Positions 19,369-30,320 of a stretch of DNA of 64,000 bases are shown here, in pieces. The notes beneath the pieces are model-generated. The model ran no database searches, was not told where the DNA came from, and saw only the letters and a program-made list of their open reading frames with translations. The position numbers and the translations under genes are program-made. Every line of letters starts with the position of its first letter. Position 1 is the first letter of the stretch. This stretch comes from Dehalococcoidia bacterium (lineage in GTDB: Bacteria; Chloroflexota; Dehalococcoidia; Bin125). The stretch is taken from positions 1,408,001 through 1,472,000 of the forward strand of contig CAXXSR010000001.1 of the NCBI GenBank assembly GCA_963662615.2, written 5' to 3'.

Positions 19369-20406
19369 CTAGTCCAGCAGGGCCAGATCGCGGCCGCGGG
19401 CCACCGCCCGCGTCCGGTTGCCCACGCTCAGCTTGCTGAAGATGTTGTTGATGTGCGTCTTCACCGTGCCCACCGACACGACCAGCCGCTCCGCGATCTC
19501 CTGGTTCGTCAGCCCCGTGGCGATCAGCCGCAGCACCTCCAGCTCGCGGGCGCTCAGCGGTTCAACGCCGCCGTCAGCTGGAGCCGGGACCGGCCGCGCA
19601 TCGTCAAGGAAATCGTCGATCACCGCGATCACGCCGTCGACCTCGCCGAGCCACGGCGCGATCGAACTTCCCGGCAACAACGCCAGGCGCGCATCCGGGA
19701 TCGCGGCGGCCAGCTCCCGCGCCACGGCTACATCGATCACGGGCATCTCGGTGCGATGAAGAATAAGCGTGGGCGCGCGCACATCCGGCAGCAGCGCCCC
19801 CAGGTCCCGTTTTGCGAACTCCGCGAAGGCCGCCTGCGCCACCTCCGGTGTGACCGCCGCCCGTATCATCGCCGCGAACCGCTGCGCCGACTCCCCGTCG
19901 CTCCAGCCGAACCCGGCCAGCGCGATCGTCTCCGTGAACAGCTCCCAGTCTCGCTCAAGCAGCATGTGAATTGTCTGCGCTCGCGGCTGCCCCACCATGT
20001 GGAAGACCTGCGAGTACGTATGCCACAACACCAGCGCTCGGACCCGTTCGGGGTGCGCCGCCGCGTACGCCACGGCGGTCGGCCCCGCGTGGATCGCCGC
20101 AATCAGGGCAAACGCCTCCAGCCCCAACCGATCGACCACCGCCTCCAGATCGCGCATCTGCGCCTCTAACGAGAAGTCCGCTGCCTCCCGTTCGGAGAGC
20201 CCCGTCCCCCGGCTGTCGAACCGCACCAGCAGCCGCCCCTCGGCCAGCCGCTCATGCCAGCGTCGCCACTCGGGGATCTCCCACTCCCGCTGGAGATGAC
20301 AGCACGGCACCGTCGGCAGGCAGACCAGCGGGCTCCCCTCGCCCAGCGTGCAATAGGCGATGCTCACCCCGTCCGACGTCGGCGCGTAGCGAATCATCGG
20401 CTCCAT
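19369..20406 (-). CDS. Alpha/beta-hydrolase-fold sensor + LuxR HTH regulator
   Basis: [16 protein letters not shown]; C-terminal [24 protein letters not shown]. Confidence 0.88.
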
Positions 20407-20449: not shown

Positions 20450-20612
20450 CCGCTCACCCTGACCTGTCCTTCCCTCCTGGGTAGAAGCCTCTCGAAGGGC
20501 CGCCGAACCAACCACCCTCTCCGCTCCGTCCTCCCCCTCTCCATCGCTCACCGATGGAGAGGGGGCCAGTGGGTGAGGTCATCCGCTCACCCTGAGCCTG
20601 TCGAATGACGAA
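20450..20612. repeat. Mosaic REP-like palindrome cluster
   Basis: GCTCACCCTGA..GCCTGTCGAA and CCCCTCTCCATCG..CGATGGAGAGGGG modules. Confidence 0.8.
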
Positions 20613-20695
20613 CCGCCTCCTCCACTCCACGCCCCGCGCGTTCGCTACCATCCCCCTGAAGCGACGCAGATCGCAGAACCGATTCGGAGGCAACA

Positions 20696-21163
20696 ATGGC
20701 TGACCCCTTCCAATACATCTCGCAGACCAGGATCGTGCTGAAAGACGGCGTCCGCCACGCCTACCTGGGCGACGTGCCGGAGCCCGTCCGCTACGGCGTC
20801 CAAGGCGCCCTGCGCGACTACTACGGCGTCGGCCCCGGCGAGCCCGTCGCCGCCACCCTCGACCACATTGTCGCCGCCGTCGGCGGTTGAATGTTCGGCA
20901 CCCTAGCGCGGGCGCTGGCCGCCCGCGAGGTCGAGTTCGACCGCTCCACCTACTCCGCGGACGTCGCGGGCACCATCGAAGGGCCCGATAAGAAGACCAT
21001 CCGCATCACCAAGATCCACGTGACCTTCCATCTCAGCCTCCCCGCGGCTCAGCGCACGGCCGCCGAGCGCGCTGTGGCCGTACACGCCGCCGGCTGTCCG
21101 GCGCATGAGAGCGTCAAAGACACCATCGACATCACGTCGTCGGCCGAGATCGAGGAGCGCTGA
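20696..21163 (+). CDS. OsmC-like protein, probable selenoprotein (UGA at 20888-20890)
   Basis: Two adjacent ORFs join in frame: HIVAAVGG-UGA-MFGTL..GCPAHES; UGA at the OsmC peroxidatic Cys position; hairpin immediately downstream. Confidence 0.82.
20902..20930 (+). promoter_or_regulatory. Putative bacterial SECIS element
   Basis: Stem CGCGGGCG/CGCCCGCG (20907-14 / 20920-27), G-containing loop CTGGC, lower CCT/AGG pairs; stem begins 16 nt after UGA. Confidence 0.65.
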
Positions 21164-21175
21164 GCGAACCCGGTC

Positions 21176-22279
21176 ATGCCCGCAGACCTCCGCATCACAC
21201 TCCTGCACGACCGCCACGTCGCCCTCGGCGCTCGCATGGTCCCCTTCGCCGGCTGGACCATGCCGCTCCAGTACGTCGGCATCCTGGAGGAGCACGCCGC
21301 CGTGCGCGAGCGCGTCGGCCTCTTCGATGTCTCGCATCTCGCCCGTGTCACTGTCCGCGGGCGCGACGCCGCCGACCAGATCCGCTCCATCACCACCTAC
21401 GACGTCCGACGGCTCGCCCCGGGCACGGCGCACTACTCGCTCTACTGCAACGACGACGGCGGCATCGCTGACGACGTCTTCATCTACCGCCTCCAGCAGG
21501 ACCGCTGGCTCATCGTTCACAACGCCGCCTTCGCCGGCCCCGACCTCCAGCGCGTGCAACGCGCCGCCGGCGACGCCGCCCAAGACGTGACCGCGGAGAC
21601 GGTCATGCTCGCCCTCCAGGGCCCGCTCGCCCTGGCGATGCTCCGCGACACGCTTGGCCCCGCCGTTGACGGCCTGAAACTCCACGCCTGCGCCGAATTG
21701 GCCTGGCGCGGCGCAACCGTCCTCATCGCCCGCACCGGCTACACCGGCGAGGACGGAGCGGAATGCATCGCCAATGGGGTCACCGGCGCAACCCTCTGGG
21801 ACGCGCTCCACGCCGCCGGTGCCAAGCCGGCCGGATTGGGCGCCCGCGACACGCTCCGACTGGAGGCTGCGCTCCCTCTGGCCGGCCACGACATCGACGC
21901 CACCACCCACCCCTATGAGGCCGGCCTAGGCTGGACCGTCACCCTCGACGACGCCCGTGCCTTTACCGACCGCCCCTTCACCGGCCACGACGCCCTCGTC
22001 GCGCTCCAGGCCGCAACGCCGGTCCGCCGCCTCACCCATCTGAAGGCGTCGCAGCGCGGGGTGCTCCGGGCGGGCCAGGCGGTTCGCACGGAAGATGGCG
22101 GCCGTACGCTCGGCGCCTTGACCAGCGGCGCCTTCAGCCCCACGCTACGTGTGGGAATCGGCATGGCCTATCTCCCCCCGGATCTCGCCCGCCCCGGCAC
22201 GCGCCTCCAGGTCGATGTCCGCGGTCGGGCCCTCCCAGTCGAAGTCGTGCGCCGCCCCTTCTACCGGCGGCCCCTCTAG
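21176..22279 (+). CDS. gcvT: Glycine cleavage T protein
   Basis: FAGWTMPLQY, GLFDVSH, ARTGYTGEDG, GLGARDTLRLEA. Confidence 0.96.
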   Translation: MPADLRITLLHDRHVALGARMVPFAGWTMPLQYVGILEEHAAVRERVGLFDVSHLARVTVRGRDAADQIRSITTYDVRRLAPGTAHYSLYCNDDGGIADDVFIYRLQQDRWLIVHNAAFAGPDLQRVQRAAGDAAQDVTAETVMLALQGPLALAMLRDTLGPAVDGLKLHACAELAWRGATVLIARTGYTGEDGAECIANGVTGATLWDALHAAGAKPAGLGARDTLRLEAALPLAGHDIDATTHPYEAGLGWTVTLDDARAFTDRPFTGHDALVALQAATPVRRLTHLKASQRGVLRAGQAVRTEDGGRTLGALTSGAFSPTLRVGIGMAYLPPDLARPGTRLQVDVRGRALPVEVVRRPFYRRPL

Positions 22280-22290
22280 AGAAAAGCCTC

Positions 22291-22686
22291 ATGGCCCCAG
22301 AAACGCTCATCCCGGCCGACCGCCACTACACCTCCGAGCACGAATGGCTCCTCGTCGATGGTGACGAAGCCACCATCGGCATCACCGACTTCGCCCAGGA
22401 CGAACTTGGCGACATCGTCTACGTCGAGCTGCCCGCGGTCGGCACTTCCGTCACCAAGGGCGAGGCGTTCGGCGTCGTCGAGTCCGTCAAGGCCGTCTCC
22501 GATCTCTTCACCCCCGCCGCCGGCGAGGTCATCGCTCGCAACGACAAGCTGGAAGACGCGCCGGAGCTGCTGAATCAGTCGCCCTACGATGCCGGCTGGT
22601 TGATCCGCCTGCGCCTCGCCGACCCCGCTGAGCTGGCTGACCTCCTCGACGCCGACGCCTACCGGCGCGAGTTCCCGGACGCCTGA
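22291..22686 (+). CDS. gcvH: Glycine cleavage H protein
   Basis: HEW..GITDFAQDELGDIVYVELP, VESVKA lipoyl-Lys. Confidence 0.97.
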   Translation: MAPETLIPADRHYTSEHEWLLVDGDEATIGITDFAQDELGDIVYVELPAVGTSVTKGEAFGVVESVKAVSDLFTPAAGEVIARNDKLEDAPELLNQSPYDAGWLIRLRLADPAELADLLDADAYRREFPDA

Positions 22687-22700
22687 GGGGGATCGGCCCG

Positions 22701-24113
22701 GTGGAATCCGCCTCCACGGACGCCCCCACGCCCTACATCGCCAACACCGCCGCTGATCGCGCCGCCATGCTCGCCCGCATCGGCGTCAGGGATCTGGAGG
22801 ACCTCTTCGCCGAACTGCCGGCGCGGTTCCGCGACCCGCCTCTCCCCCTCGACCCCCCCCTCGCCGAGGCGGACCTCCAGCAGCACTTCCGCCGCCTCGC
22901 GGCTGAGAACGCCGATCTCGCCCAGCGCCCTTCCTTTCTCGGCGCCGGCGCCTACCGGCGAGCGCTGCCGGCCGTCACCGCCGCTTTGGCCTCCCGCTCC
23001 GAGTTCGTCACCGCCTACACCCCCTATCAACCGGAGATCAGTCAGGGCACGCTCCAGAGCGCCTTCGAGTTCCAGTCCGTCGTCTGCGAACTCACCGGCA
23101 TGGACGTCTCCAACACCGGCCTCTACGACGTTGCCAGCGCCAGCGCGGAGGCCACCCTGCTCGCCGCCCGCGTCACCGAGCGCCACCGCGTCACCAAGCG
23201 CCACCGCGTCGCCGTGCTGGAGCCGTTCCACCCCCACACCCTCGATGTTGTTCGCTCCTACGCCTACGGCGCCGACCTCGCCATTGATGCTGTGCCGAGC
23301 GCCGACGACCTGGGCACCGACCACGCCTGCCTCCTCATCCAGCAGCCCGACTTCCTCGGAACCATTCACGACGTCGAACCCCTGGCGGCCGCGGCGCACG
23401 CGGCCGGCGCCCTGCTCGTCGTGGTCGCCGATCCTTTCGCCCTCGGCCTGCTCCGCGCCCCCGGCGACGCCGGCGCCGACGTCGTCACCGGCGAGGGACG
23501 CGACCTCGCGGGGCCACCCTCGTTTGGCGGGCCCTCGCTCGGACTCTTCGCCGCCAAGGAGGCGCATCTGCGCCAGATGCCCGGCCGCATCGTCGGGCGG
23601 ACCAAGGAGCTGCACGGCCCCACCCGCACCGACGGCAGCACCGCCGATCCCCGCACCGGCTACGTCCTCACCCTCCAGGCGCGCGAACAGTTCATCCGCC
23701 GCGAGCGCGCCACCTCCAACTTCTCCACCGGCCAGTCGCTCTTGGCCCTCGCCTTCACCGTGACCGTCCAGGCGCTCGGACCACACGGCCTCCGCCGCCA
23801 GGCCGATCGCTGCTACCAGACCGCCCACGACGCCGCCGCCCGCATCGCCGCGCTGCCCGGCTACGCCGTCGTCGATCGTGGCCCCTGGTTCCAAGAGTTC
23901 CTGCTTCGCGGTCCCCTCCCCGCCCCCCAGCTGCTCCAACGCCTCGCCGACGCCGGCATCGTCGGCGGCCTCGACGTTTCAGATCGGCCCGAGCCCGAAG
24001 CCGCGGGCGCCATCCTCACCTGCGTCACCGAGAGCACCCCCCCGGACCACGTCGACCGCCTCATCGCCGCCCTCTCTTCCCTGGAGCAGGCGTCCTTGGA
24101 GAAGACCCCGTGA
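22701..24113 (+). CDS. gcvPA: Glycine dehydrogenase subunit 1
   Basis: FLGAGAY, TAYTPYQPEISQG, LTLQAREQFIRRERATSN. Confidence 0.95.
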   Translation: MESASTDAPTPYIANTAADRAAMLARIGVRDLEDLFAELPARFRDPPLPLDPPLAEADLQQHFRRLAAENADLAQRPSFLGAGAYRRALPAVTAALASRSEFVTAYTPYQPEISQGTLQSAFEFQSVVCELTGMDVSNTGLYDVASASAEATLLAARVTERHRVTKRHRVAVLEPFHPHTLDVVRSYAYGADLAIDAVPSADDLGTDHACLLIQQPDFLGTIHDVEPLAAAAHAAGALLVVVADPFALGLLRAPGDAGADVVTGEGRDLAGPPSFGGPSLGLFAAKEAHLRQMPGRIVGRTKELHGPTRTDGSTADPRTGYVLTLQAREQFIRRERATSNFSTGQSLLALAFTVTVQALGPHGLRRQADRCYQTAHDAAARIAALPGYAVVDRGPWFQEFLLRGPLPAPQLLQRLADAGIVGGLDVSDRPEPEAAGAILTCVTESTPPDHVDRLIAALSSLEQASLEKTP

Positions 24114-25633
24114 GCGCACCGCAACCGGAAGACGTGGGCGCTCGCCTCGCCTTCGACCGCGGCGCCCCCGGCCGTTCGGCCGTCGCCGTCTCTGCCTGGG
24201 AGGGCGAGCGGCGTCCCCTGCCCCCTGCCTCCCTCCTCCGCGATTCTCTCCGGCTGCCGGAGCTGAGCCAGCCCGAGCTCGTCCGCTACTACATCGCCCT
24301 TTCGCGGCGCAACTACGGCGTCGACAGCGGCTCCTACCCGCTCGGGTCCTGCACCATGAAGTACAACCCCAAGCTGCACGATGCCCTCGCCGGCCTGCCC
24401 GGCTTCGCCGATGCGCACCCGCTCGCCCCTCCCCACGACGTCCAGGGCACGCTGCGGCTGCTCTGGGAGCTGCAGCAGGCGCTCGGCCTGATCACGGGGC
24501 TGCCCGCCGTCAGCTTGGCGCCCGCCGCCGGCGCCCAGGGCGAACTCTCGGGCATGCTGATGATCAAGAGCGCCCTCCAGGATCGCGGCGAATTGGCGCA
24601 GCGCCGGCGTGTCCTCGTGCCGGACAGCGCCCACGGCACCAACCCGGCCTCCGCCGCCATGGCCGGCTTCACCGTCACCCAGCTCCCCACCAGCGCCACC
24701 GGCTCCATCGACCGCGCCGCCCTCCAGCGAGAGTTGGACGGCAGCGTCGCGGCGCTCATGGTCACGCTGCCCAACACCCTGGGCCTGTGGGAGGAGTCCA
24801 TTGAAGAGGTGACGGCGTTGGTCCACCAGGCGGGCGGCTTCGTCTACGGCGACGGCGCCAACCTCAACGCTGTCGCCGGCCGCATCCGCTACGGCGACCT
24901 CGGCGTCGACGTCGCCCACTTCAACCTGCACAAGACCTTCAGCACCCCGCACGGGGGAGGCGGCCCCGGCGCCGGCCCCGTCTGCGCCCGCCCCGACCTC
25001 GCCCCGCTGCTGCCTGCTCCCGTCGTGCAGCGCACCGAAGCAGGAGGGGAGCGCACGCAAGAAGACGCCTTCTCTCTGGCGCGCCCCGCCCACAGCATCG
25101 GACGCGTGCAGCAGTTCCACGGCAGCATCGGCGTGCTCATCCGCGCCTACGCCTATATCCGCAGCCTCGGCGCCCCTGGGCTCCGCGCCGTCTCCGCCAA
25201 CGCCGTCCTCAACGCGAACTACCTCCGCTCCCTCCTCCGCGACGACTATGACCTCCCCTTCGACCGTCCCGTCCTGCACGAAGTGATCTTCTCCGGCTCC
25301 CGCCAGCGCCGCGAATCCGACGTCCGCACCTACGACATCGCCAAGCGCCTGATCGACTACGGCTTCCATCCCCCCACGGTCTACTTCCCCCTGATCGTGG
25401 AGGAGGCGTTGATGATCGAGCCCACCGAGACCGAGCCCCGCGAGGAGTTGGAGCGCTTCGCCGACGCCCTCATCGCCATCGCCCGGGAGGCTCGTGAGCA
25501 GCCCGACCTCGTCCGTTCGGCGCCCCACGCCGCCCCCCTTGGCCGCCTCGACGAGGTCACGGCCGCCCGCCGCCCCGACCTCCGCTGGCGCCCCCCATCC
25601 GCTCACCCTGAGCCTGTCGAAAGGTCACCCTGA
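24110..25633 (+). CDS. gcvPB: Glycine dehydrogenase subunit 2
   Basis: YPLGSCTMKYNP, AHGTNPAS, NLHKTFSTPHGGGGPG. Confidence 0.96.
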   Translation: MSAPQPEDVGARLAFDRGAPGRSAVAVSAWEGERRPLPPASLLRDSLRLPELSQPELVRYYIALSRRNYGVDSGSYPLGSCTMKYNPKLHDALAGLPGFADAHPLAPPHDVQGTLRLLWELQQALGLITGLPAVSLAPAAGAQGELSGMLMIKSALQDRGELAQRRRVLVPDSAHGTNPASAAMAGFTVTQLPTSATGSIDRAALQRELDGSVAALMVTLPNTLGLWEESIEEVTALVHQAGGFVYGDGANLNAVAGRIRYGDLGVDVAHFNLHKTFSTPHGGGGPGAGPVCARPDLAPLLPAPVVQRTEAGGERTQEDAFSLARPAHSIGRVQQFHGSIGVLIRAYAYIRSLGAPGLRAVSANAVLNANYLRSLLRDDYDLPFDRPVLHEVIFSGSRQRRESDVRTYDIAKRLIDYGFHPPTVYFPLIVEEALMIEPTETEPREELERFADALIAIAREAREQPDLVRSAPHAAPLGRLDEVTAARRPDLRWRPPSAHPEPVERSP

Positions 25634-25750
25634 GCCTGCCTGACCTGTCCTTCCCTCCCGGGAAGGAGCCCGTCCAAGGGTCGAAGGACGAACGGGCCTT
25701 CCTCCCCCTCTCCATCGCTTCGGGATGGAGAGGGAGCCAGGGGGTGAGGC
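25599..25750. repeat. Mosaic REP-like cluster overlapping the gcvPB stop
   Basis: GCTCACCCTGAGCCTGTCGAA, nested CCTGACCTGTCCTTCCCTCCCGGGAAGGAG, CCCTCTCCATC..GATGGAGAGGG. Confidence 0.85.
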
Positions 25751-29834: not shown

Positions 29835-30320
29835 GTTTGCCTCTCCGGACCTGTCCTTCCCTCCCGGGAAGGAGCTTGCCTGTCCCGCGCCCGCCCTTGC
29901 TGAGCTGTCCTTGCCTCCTGGGAAGGAGCCTGTCGAGCATTCCCAAGGCCCTCAACCGGCGCGACCCGCATGATACCGCAGGCCGCCCGCGCGCCCCGAC
30001 CTGTCCGGAGCGTGCCCGCCCTAATCCTTCCCCTCGGGGAGGACGAAGGGGCGCAGCGCGAACAGCGGCCGCCCCGCCCGTTCGTCCTGAGCTTGTCGAA
30101 GGGCCGAAGGGGCGAACGCGACGACCGCCCGCTCATCAACCGCCGGCGCGAGCCGCCACCAACACCGCGCCAGCCCGGATGACGCGCGAGCGCGCGTCGA
30201 AACATCCGCTCACCCTGAGCCTGTCGAAGGGTCGTCCTGATCTTGTCGAAGGACGAACGCACCTCCCCCTCTCCATCCTTCCCGCGGAAGGATGGAGAGG
30301 GGGCCGGGGGGTGAGGTCAC
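29835..30320. repeat. Large mosaic REP-like cluster
   Basis: Several (GT)CCTGAG(C/T)TTGTCGAAGG copies, CGGCGCGAGCCGCCACCAAC module and CCCCTCTCC..GGAGAGGGG hairpins. Confidence 0.85.

What the first reader, a model, noticed from the sequence alone, without database searches (positions are those of the whole stretch)
20696..25633. Sec-OsmC heads a gcvT-H-PA-PB operon without lpd: candidate glycine-fuelled selenoperoxidase system
Seen: only 12 nt separate OsmC from gcvT, the genes are tightly packed, and no L-protein or glycine riboswitch is present. Known: Ohr/OsmC peroxidases are reduced by dihydrolipoyl groups on lipoylated proteins, and GcvH is such a carrier left reduced after each cycle. 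Inference: Sec-OsmC re-oxidises dihydrolipoyl-GcvH while reducing peroxides or another acceptor, linking glycine oxidation to redox defence. Caveat: lpd is often encoded elsewhere.
Basis: partly seen in the sequence, partly recalled or inferred. Interest (0 to 1): 0.8.

Follow-up and report, generated by a model that had tools for sequence, protein, structure and literature searches.

The report
Selenocysteine OsmC peroxidase heading glycine-cleavage operon

Summary
Window 20696-21163 (+) encodes a 155-residue OsmC/Ohr-fold protein with an in-frame TGA at codon 65. gcvT follows after 12 nt, then gcvH, gcvPA and gcvPB. The window holds no lpd and no glycine riboswitch.

The TGA is selenocysteine. 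It lies where the first redox cysteine of E. coli OsmC aligns. It is kept in 21 of 21 related genomes and 80 of 80 further loci. The genome has selA, selB, selD and tRNA-Sec.

The protein falls below the cut-offs of the OsmC and known Sec-OsmC models and gave no Ohr hit. Public databases mostly hold it as roughly 90-residue fragments.

Linkage to gcvH recurs in 18 of 80 loci, all Chloroflexota, in four gene orders. Five genomes showed no gcvT or P-protein, kept Lpd, and carry their only full-length GcvH directly after Sec-OsmC.

So the link is to the lipoyl carrier rather than to glycine oxidation. This matches the Trichomonas L-H-OsmC peroxide relay and a noted Hyphomicrobium GcvH-like/OsmC pair. 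"Without lpd" means little, because Lpd sits beside an E2 gene on the other contig.

The glycine-fuelled cycle stays possible but untested. Earlier scan notes report GcvH-like/OsmC modules on other DNA. Verdict: a new variant of a known kind.

The parts
20458..20578 (.). Dispersed intergenic repeat (REP-like) with a palindromic hairpin at 20535-20565, upstream of the cluster
   Evidence: A direct copy lies at 25639-25749. blastn of the element against the genome gave 100 hits. It is a genome-wide element and not specific to this operon.
20686..20690 (+). GGAGG ribosome-binding site, 5 nt before the osmC ATG
   Evidence: Read directly from the sequence.
20696..21163 (+). Sec-OsmC: a 155-residue OsmC/Ohr-fold selenoprotein with U65 and C134
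   Evidence: Translation with TGA=U. Pfam OsmC. AlphaFold model with pLDDT 85 and pTM 0.80. Foldseek places it among OsmC/Ohr structures at probability 1.0.
20888..20890 (+). In-frame TGA read as selenocysteine, at the first redox-cysteine position
   Evidence: It aligns with the Cys of the 'AACFS' stretch of E. coli OsmC 1qwi. The TGA is kept in 21 of 21 genomes and 80 of 80 loci. One Cys-form homologue, P0003, exists.
20907..20927 (+). GC-rich hairpin (8-bp stem, loop CUGGC) starting 17 nt after the UGA; candidate bacterial SECIS
   Evidence: Fold, with a z-score of only -1.40. A similar hairpin appears in most of 71 distinct homologous sequences, but in shifting register. RNAalifold finds no consensus structure. 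In the pair count, 79.5% of cells are paired and one pair covaries. The result is inconclusive.
21176..22279 (+). gcvT (aminomethyltransferase)
   Evidence: Pfam GCV_T at 4.1e-82 plus GCV_T_C.
22291..22686 (+). gcvH (lipoyl carrier); lipoyl-lysine K67 at 22489-22491
   Evidence: Pfam GCV_H at 2.4e-43. NCBIfam GcvH above the cut-off. E64, S65 and K67 are invariant in the alignment.
22701..24113 (+). gcvPA (P-protein subunit 1)
   Evidence: Pfam GDC-P at 2.3e-99.
24110..25633 (+). gcvPB (P-protein subunit 2)
   Evidence: Pfam GcvP2_C at 1.3e-28.
25639..25749 (.). Second copy of the dispersed intergenic repeat, directly after gcvPB

Best explanation
The cluster encodes a selenocysteine-containing OsmC/Ohr-fold hydroperoxide reductase, probably co-expressed with the glycine cleavage proteins T, H, PA and PB.

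Proposed cycle:
1. The selenolate of Sec65 attacks a hydroperoxide.
2. Cys134 resolves the selenenic acid to an intramolecular selenenylsulfide.
3. The dihydrolipoyl arm on Lys67 of GcvH reduces it back.
4. Oxidised GcvH is recharged by lipoamide dehydrogenase with NADH. Lpd is encoded elsewhere in the genome.
5. In this genome, GcvH can in principle also be recharged by each turnover of the P and T proteins on glycine.

Shown: the gene anatomy, Sec at the catalytic position, the fold, the Sec machinery, and recurrent linkage to gcvH.

Inferred: peroxidase activity, GcvH as the reductant, and co-transcription.
For: Sec at the catalytic site:
- The TGA aligns with the first redox Cys of E. coli OsmC, and C134 aligns with its 'AGCP' Cys.
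- The fold is OsmC/Ohr.
- selB, selA, selD (itself with one TGA) and tRNA-Sec are all present.

Linkage to gcvH:
- 11 of the 21 genomes with the gene have gcvH or the gcv operon near it, within about 8 kb.
- 18 of 80 loci do.
- There are four gene orders: osmC>gcvTH-PA(-PB), gcvTHPAPB>SnoaL>osmC, osmC>gcvH and gcvH>osmC.
- The linked loci sit at six or more places on the OsmC tree.

Genomes with an incomplete glycine cleavage system:
- In 4 g7 genomes and 1 g8 genome (95-99% complete), gcvT was found in 0 of 5, P-protein in 0 of 5 and Lpd in 5 of 5.
- The sole full-length GcvH in each follows Sec-OsmC.
- In the 4 of these 5 that were searched, and in the window's genome, there is only one LplA/LipB-type gene. 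This argues against a LipM/LipL relay as the reason GcvH is kept.

Other support:
- All OsmC-adjacent GcvH keep the lipoyl lysine.
- In L059 a lipoyl ligase/transferase gene lies between osmC and gcvT.
- In 6 loci, mostly Rokubacteria/Methylomirabilota, the gene in front clusters as an AhpC/TSA-type fragment. In the one read through (L123) it is a Prx-like WUPYC selenoprotein. This fits an antioxidant role.

Precedent in papers:
- Trichomonas OsmC takes electrons from lipoate through the L and H proteins (passages in PMC7946386 and PMC5384416).
Against: - 62 of 80 homologous loci have no gcvH within 8 kb, and none of the loci outside Chloroflexota does. GcvH adjacency is therefore not a family-wide trait. 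15 of the 80 loci have under 3 kb of flank on one side.
- In G024, P-protein was not found, yet its gcvH is far from osmC.
- There is no expression data: no RNA holder is listed.
- The SECIS-like hairpin is not statistically distinct.
- The catalytic Arg and Glu of the Ohr and OsmC subfamilies could not be mapped.
- The protein scores far below the cut-offs of the curated OsmC and Sec-OsmC models and gave no Ohr hit, so peroxidase activity is an extrapolation from the fold.
- Related genomes are not independent samples.
Confidence: 0.55

Rival explanations
1. One reading: the operon runs glycine cleavage with peroxide as the terminal oxidant. Sec-OsmC replaces the L-protein in re-oxidising dihydrolipoyl-GcvH, so glycine directly fuels peroxide removal without Lpd or NAD+.
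For: osmC lies 12 nt before gcvT with no promoter-like or terminator-like site between them. The same osmC-first order occurs in L060, and in L059 with a lipoyl ligase gene in between. The chemistry is feasible, because T-protein turnover leaves GcvH reduced; this comes from general knowledge of the glycine cleavage system.
Against: Lpd is present in the genome beside an E2. The OsmC-GcvH pairing persists in 5 genomes where neither gcvT nor P-protein was found, so glycine is not needed for the partnership. Only 3 loci (the window, L059, L060) have the osmC-first order.
Confidence: 0.15
2. The neighbourhood carries no coupling. Sec-OsmC is a stand-alone peroxidase reduced by other dithiols, such as E2 lipoyl domains or thioredoxin. 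Its position next to the gcv genes reflects gene-order drift within one bacterial class.
For: Most homologous loci (62 of 80) lack gcvH nearby. The commonest context is aminotransferase > osmC > RibD_C, and in Rokubacteria a Prx-like selenoprotein and an ECF sigma factor. From recall, bacterial Ohr was shown to work with lipoylated E2 proteins (Cussiol 2010, seen here only in reference lists).
Against: 18 of 80 loci is far above the roughly 0.5% expected for a random gene lying within 8 kb of one gcvH in a 3-Mb genome (my own estimate). There are four different gene orders at six or more places on the tree. In 5 genomes the only full-length GcvH follows osmC.
Confidence: 0.2
3. Sec-OsmC is not a peroxidase. 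It is a redox chaperone for the lipoyl arm of GcvH, for example keeping it in the right redox state or repairing oxidised lipoyl.
For: The protein is not a member of the curated OsmC or Sec-OsmC subfamily models and gave no Ohr hit. It has a strongly conserved N-terminal segment of its own, with Y7, R20, G25, Y33, G34, Q36 and G37 invariant. The OsmC-adjacent GcvH form a fast-evolving clade.
Against: Both redox positions of OsmC peroxidases are kept. In Rokubacteria the gene is paired with a Prx-like selenoprotein. No precedent turned up in the four paper searches made.
Confidence: 0.08
4. The TGA is a true stop, and the locus holds two small ORFs or a pseudogene.
For: Public databases mostly hold roughly 90-residue fragments that start after the TGA, or N-terminal fragments that end at it. 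The hairpin after the TGA is not significant.
Against: Both halves are conserved in one frame with the TGA at the same codon in 101 loci. A Cys-form homologue exists. The full Sec machinery is present. The joined protein folds as one OsmC domain.
Confidence: 0.02

Closest known systems
Trichomonas vaginalis hydrogenosomal OsmC with the incomplete glycine decarboxylase complex (L and H proteins); Nyvltova et al. 2016, pmid 26794804. The paper itself was not held. It was seen as cited and described in PMC7946386, PMC5384416 and PMC12440151.
   Same: It combines an OsmC-family protein, the lipoyl H-protein and the L-protein as a peroxide-reducing relay. The five g7/g8 genomes mirror the 'incomplete' set: H and L were found, P and T were not.
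   Different: Here the system is bacterial. The first redox residue is selenocysteine. The genes are physically linked. In the window itself the full T-H-PA-PB set is present in the same cluster.
Lipoyl-dependent Ohr/OsmC peroxidases of bacteria (Cussiol et al. 2010; E. coli OsmC structure 1qwi).
   Same: The fold is the same and both redox positions align with those of E. coli OsmC. A dithiol or lipoyl reductant is expected.
   Different: Sequence similarity is marginal (E 0.04 to 1qwi). The protein is below the TIGR03562 cut-off and has no Ohr model hit. It has Sec instead of Cys, and its own conserved N-terminal segment.
Known Sec-containing OsmC-like family (Sargasso Sea selenoproteome, PMC1088965, tables and legends seen; NCBIfam NF041052 'OsmC-related (seleno)protein').
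   Same: It is an OsmC-fold selenoprotein with Sec at the first redox position.
   Different: The window protein scores 22.6 bits against the NF041052 cut-off of 95. Its motif is U-M-F/Y-G-T (UxxxT), while the paper lists UxxT. It appears to be a separate Sec-OsmC lineage. I could not compare it with the paper's sequences.
Hyphomicrobium denitrificans GcvH-like Hden_1299 beside OsmC Hden_1301 (bioRxiv 10.64898/2026.10.01.755906, passages seen).
   Same: It is a bacterial gene neighbourhood of a GcvH-type lipoyl carrier and OsmC, read by the authors as an electron donor and acceptor pair.
   Different: That carrier is a GcvH-like paralogue apart from the classical GcvH, and no Sec is mentioned. 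Here the classical gcvH, or the genome's only gcvH, is the neighbour.
Mycobacterium tuberculosis Lpd-DlaT-AhpD-AhpC relay (as summarised in PMC12440151).
   Same: It uses protein-bound lipoate as the electron source for a peroxidase.
   Different: It has a different peroxidase fold and an AhpD adaptor, and its lipoyl carrier is an E2 rather than GcvH.

Membership tests
OsmC/Ohr superfamily (Pfam PF02566) | Profile match above the gathering score | tested here: met
   40.5 bits against 27.5, E 3.8e-10, residues 56-148.
OsmC/Ohr superfamily (Pfam PF02566) | OsmC alpha/beta fold | tested here: met
   Model with pLDDT 85 and pTM 0.80. The top Foldseek hits are 2onf, 1lql, Ohr and OsmC chains at probability 1.0 and TM 0.44-0.61.
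OsmC/Ohr superfamily (Pfam PF02566) | Two conserved redox cysteines, peroxidatic and resolving | tested here: met
   U65 aligns with the Cys of 'AACFS' and C134 with the Cys of 'AGCP' in E. coli OsmC 1qwi. Both are invariant in 35 sequences. Which Cys is peroxidatic is recalled, not tested.
OsmC/Ohr superfamily (Pfam PF02566) | Catalytic Arg and Glu near the peroxidatic Cys | tested here: inconclusive
   R20, R77, R125 and E138 are invariant or nearly so. I could not map them onto the active site.
OsmC/Ohr superfamily (Pfam PF02566) | Thiol-dependent or lipoyl-dependent hydroperoxide reductase activity | not testable with these tools
   This needs an enzyme assay.
OsmC subfamily (TIGR03562) and Ohr subfamily | Score above the curated cut-off | tested here: not met
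   TIGR03562 scores 17.8 bits against 85.8. No Ohr model appears at E up to 0.01.
NCBIfam NF041052 OsmC-related (seleno)protein | Score above the curated cut-off | tested here: not met
   22.6 bits against 95.
Bacterial selenoprotein | In-frame UGA conserved at a redox position, with Cys-form homologues | tested here: met
   21 of 21 genomes, 80 of 80 loci, and the Cys form P0003.
Bacterial selenoprotein | selA, selB, selC and selD in the genome | tested here: met
   All score above their cut-offs, and tRNA-Sec was found by ARAGORN.
Bacterial selenoprotein | SECIS hairpin just downstream of the UGA | tested here: inconclusive
   The hairpin at 20907-20927 has a z-score of -1.40. There is no alifold consensus, and only one pair covaries.
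Glycine cleavage system | T, H, P (split into PA and PB) and the lipoyl lysine | tested here: met
   Pfam, NCBIfam GcvH and K67.
Glycine cleavage system | L-protein available | tested here: met
   TIGR01350 scores 540.9 bits at C2:262003-263385, beside an E2 and a lipoyl transferase. It is not in the window.
L-H-OsmC peroxide relay (Trichomonas type) | OsmC-family protein, H-protein and L-protein present together | tested here: met
   for the window's genome. for the g7/g8 genomes.
L-H-OsmC peroxide relay (Trichomonas type) | P and T proteins absent (incomplete complex) | tested here: not met
   The window has gcvT, gcvPA and gcvPB. The feature is met only in relatives G006, G014, G019, G022 and G007.
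L-H-OsmC peroxide relay (Trichomonas type) | Electron transfer NADH > L > H > OsmC > peroxide | not testable with these tools
   This needs reconstitution. A complex prediction could not be run.

The most novel reading that the evidence does not exclude
In this organism glycine cleavage and peroxide removal form one machine. Sec-OsmC takes the place of the L-protein as the oxidant of dihydrolipoyl-GcvH. Each glycine split then detoxifies one hydroperoxide without passing through NAD+, and the selenium makes the step fast enough to compete with Lpd. The osmC-gcvH pairs in genomes that lack P and T would be the stripped-down, Lpd-driven form of the same module.
Probability: 0.15. Interest if true: 0.75.

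Novelty: new variant of a known kind. Interest (0 to 1): 0.5.

Why it matters
- It flags a widespread selenoprotein lineage that public databases mostly hold as truncated pieces. 318 loci in the species-level genome collection encode a relative. Of 113 database hits, nearly all are roughly 90-residue C-terminal pieces or N-terminal pieces that end at the TGA.
- It gives a genetically compact bacterial counterpart of the Trichomonas L-H-OsmC relay. This includes free-living bacteria that keep GcvH and Lpd but show no P or T, which points to a role for GcvH outside glycine catabolism.
- It sets up a simple reconstitution that could show whether glycine oxidation can be coupled to peroxide reduction.

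Tried and rejected
- In the RNA evidence search, no RNA holder was listed. I did not lay reads, because only DNA contigs were on offer.
- RNAalifold on 32 post-UGA segments gave no consensus structure. The hairpin's register shifts between lineages, so I do not claim a defined SECIS.
- Glycine riboswitch: none was found in the window or in 9 related loci. Its absence looks lineage-wide and says nothing about osmC.
- I considered that the repeats flanking the operon might mark a mobile cassette. I rejected this because the element gave 100 blastn hits across the genome.
- I considered a GcvH lipoyl relay (LipM/LipL type) as the reason the genomes without P and T keep GcvH. This is weakened, not excluded, by finding one PF21948 gene in each of the 4 such genomes searched and in the window's genome.
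- The first tree script got no answer and was redone with FastTree.
- Cussiol 2010 (PMC2903379) is not held. Nyvltova 2016 was seen only through citing papers. Supplements were not consulted.
Full report
**Anatomy.** Between a divergently transcribed LuxR/alpha-beta-hydrolase gene (19369-20406, minus strand) and a sortase-domain gene (26002 onward) lie five same-strand genes.

The first runs from 20696 to 21163 and has a GGAGG 5 nt before its ATG. It is interrupted only by TGA at 20888-20890. Read through, it gives 155 residues with the motif VGG-U-MFGT and a second cysteine in AAGCPAHESVK. It matches Pfam OsmC above the gathering score.

Twelve nucleotides after its stop comes gcvT, then gcvH, gcvPA and gcvPB. 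The gaps are 11 and 14 nt, and the last two genes overlap by 4 nt. The pattern scan found no promoter-like site, and no terminator-like site on the + strand, inside the cluster.

**The TGA encodes selenocysteine.** The genome (2.66 Mb, two contigs) has selB at 341 bits, selA at 538 bits and selD at 369 bits, and selD itself contains one TGA. It also has a tRNA-Sec.

A search of 41 genomes (the window's own plus 40 relatives) found the gene in 21. Within the same family it was found in 19 of 24 genomes. Every copy has exactly one in-frame TGA.

A scan of the species-level genome collection found 318 loci that encode a relative. All 80 loci returned have TGA at the same codon.

In the protein database, 113 hits came back. 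Nearly all are C-terminal pieces of about 88-107 residues that begin right after the TGA, or N-terminal pieces that end at it. I saw only one full-length Cys form, P0003 with VAGCMYGT. The family is therefore essentially always Sec-containing and is stored mostly in truncated form.

A profile of 35 members aligns U65 with the cysteine of 'AACFS' and C134 with the cysteine of 'AGCP' in E. coli OsmC (E 0.04). From recall, the first of these is the peroxidatic cysteine.

The AlphaFold model (pLDDT 85, pTM 0.80) matches OsmC and Ohr crystal structures at probability 1.0. The best matches are Ta0195 and the M. pneumoniae OsmC-like protein.

The SECIS evidence is weak. A GC-rich hairpin follows the UGA by 17-22 nt in most sequences, but its register shifts between lineages. 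The window's own hairpin has a z-score of only -1.40. RNAalifold finds no consensus, and only one pair covaries.

**Which OsmC family?** The protein is far below the curated cut-offs of the OsmC subfamily (17.8 against 85.8 bits) and of NCBI's 'OsmC-related (seleno)protein' model (22.6 against 95). It gives no Ohr hit.

Sec-containing OsmC-like proteins have been known since the Sargasso Sea selenoproteome, where they are listed with the motif UxxT (tables and legends). A 2026 review still lists them (one passage). The window's lineage has U-x-x-x-T and its own invariant N-terminal segment. I read it as a second Sec-OsmC lineage. I could not compare it with the paper's sequences.

**Is the link to glycine cleavage conserved?** Partly, and in an instructive way. 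The gene orders found are:
- osmC > gcvT-H-PA(-PB): the window, L060 and L059;
- gcvT-H-PA-PB > SnoaL-like gene > osmC: three g4 genomes, and G009 at about 4.7 kb from gcvPB;
- osmC > gcvH directly: 13 loci;
- gcvH > osmC: one locus.

Within 8 kb, 18 of 80 loci have gcvH and 62 do not. All linked loci come from Chloroflexota or Dehalococcoidia-labelled MAGs. On the OsmC tree they sit in at least six places within one half of the tree. The other half has none; it holds 23 loci, among them Rokubacteria, Bacillota, Actinomycetota and Gemmatimonadales. Fifteen loci have short flanks.

In L059 a lipoyl ligase/transferase-domain gene lies between osmC and gcvT.

**The key result.** In four g7 genomes and one g8 genome (95-99% complete, four of them single contigs):
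- the P-protein family was not found (0 of 5);
- gcvT was not found (0 of 5);
- Lpd is present (5 of 5);
- the only full-length GcvH of the genome lies directly after Sec-OsmC.

G001 shows the same pairing without a P-protein hit. These GcvH keep the lipoyl lysine. Together with L068 they form one long-branched clade with support 0.89.

The window's genome and the four of these genomes that were searched each have a single LplA/LipB-type gene. A LipM/LipL relay is therefore an unlikely reason for keeping GcvH.

Counter-examples:
- G024 has no P-protein hit, yet its gcvH is far from osmC.
- G020 has the gcv genes but no Sec-OsmC hit.
- The two g3 genomes lack all three.

**Interpretation.** The recurrent partner is the lipoyl carrier and not glycine oxidation. 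[quoted passage not shown] Meireles et al. note that TvOsmC may need the L and H proteins (PMC5384416). The original paper was not held.

A 2026 preprint reads a Hyphomicrobium GcvH-like/OsmC gene pair the same way. Bacterial Ohr as a lipoyl-dependent peroxidase (Cussiol 2010) was seen only in reference lists.

In 6 loci, mostly Rokubacteria/Methylomirabilota, the gene in front of Sec-OsmC clusters as an AhpC/TSA-type fragment. In the one read through (L123) it is a Prx-like WUPYC selenoprotein. An ECF sigma factor gene lies beside it. This context independently fits an antioxidant role.

**'Without lpd' and 'no riboswitch'.** Lpd is on contig 2, in an E2 > Lpd > lipoyl-transferase cluster. 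This is the ordinary arrangement, so its absence from the gcv cluster says nothing. No glycine riboswitch was found in the window or in nine related loci.

**Mechanism and odds.**
- Most likely (0.55): a lipoyl-GcvH-dependent selenoperoxidase. GcvH would be recharged by Lpd and NADH and, in this genome, possibly also by P and T turnover.
- Neighbourhood without coupling: 0.2.
- A non-peroxidase lipoyl chaperone: 0.08.
- A true stop codon: 0.02.

Co-transcription, Sec insertion, peroxidase activity and electron transfer from GcvH are all inferred.

**Novelty.** The parts and the idea are known: Sec-OsmC-like proteins, lipoyl-dependent OsmC/Ohr, and the L-H-OsmC relay. New here are:
- a distinct Sec-OsmC lineage that databases mostly hold truncated;
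- its repeated genetic linkage to the genuine gcv operon or to the genome's sole GcvH;
- bacteria that reproduce the 'incomplete glycine decarboxylase plus OsmC' set.

Four paper searches found no description of a Sec-OsmC linked to the gcv genes. Earlier notes of this scan report GcvH-like/OsmC modules on other genomes, one of them with a TGA-OsmC. I did not test those notes.

Noticed in passing
window 20458-20578, 25639-25749, 29845-29953: A dispersed intergenic repeat of about 120 nt with a palindromic core (CCCTCTCCATCGC...GATGGAGAGGG). Copies bracket the osmC-gcv cluster in direct orientation. blastn gave 100 hits across the genome, 8 of them 80 nt or longer.
   Followed up: partly
L129:8001-8462: One Dehalococcoidia-labelled homologue has two in-frame TGAs two codons apart (AAV-U-G-U-MYG). 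This could be a double-Sec active site or a sequencing error.
   Followed up: no
L123:7390-7989 (also L116, L117, L121, L122): In Rokubacteria/Methylomirabilota MAGs the gene immediately upstream of Sec-OsmC clusters as an AhpC/TSA-type fragment. In L123, the one read through, it is a Prx-like thioredoxin-fold selenoprotein (WUPYC with an in-frame TGA). These are tandem selenoprotein genes next to an ECF sigma factor and a DUF2063 gene.
   Followed up: partly
L065:7381-7656: A UGSC-family (PF24696) ORF covers only the first half of the profile and lies just upstream of Sec-OsmC > gcvH. It may be another selenoprotein truncated at a TGA.
   Followed up: no
G000:C1:19276-20211: The genome's selD itself contains one in-frame TGA, so it is a Sec-containing selenophosphate synthetase.
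   Followed up: no
L059:8461-9285: A lipoyl protein ligase/transferase-domain gene overlaps the end of Sec-OsmC and precedes gcvT-H-PA in one Dehalococcoidia MAG.
   Followed up: partly
loci L069-L134 (gcvH next to osmC): The OsmC-adjacent GcvH replace the usual Y-T/S-x-E-H-E-W motif near the N-terminus with Y-S/T-D-D-D-L-W, and they sit on long branches. This may reflect release from P and T protein constraints.
   Followed up: no
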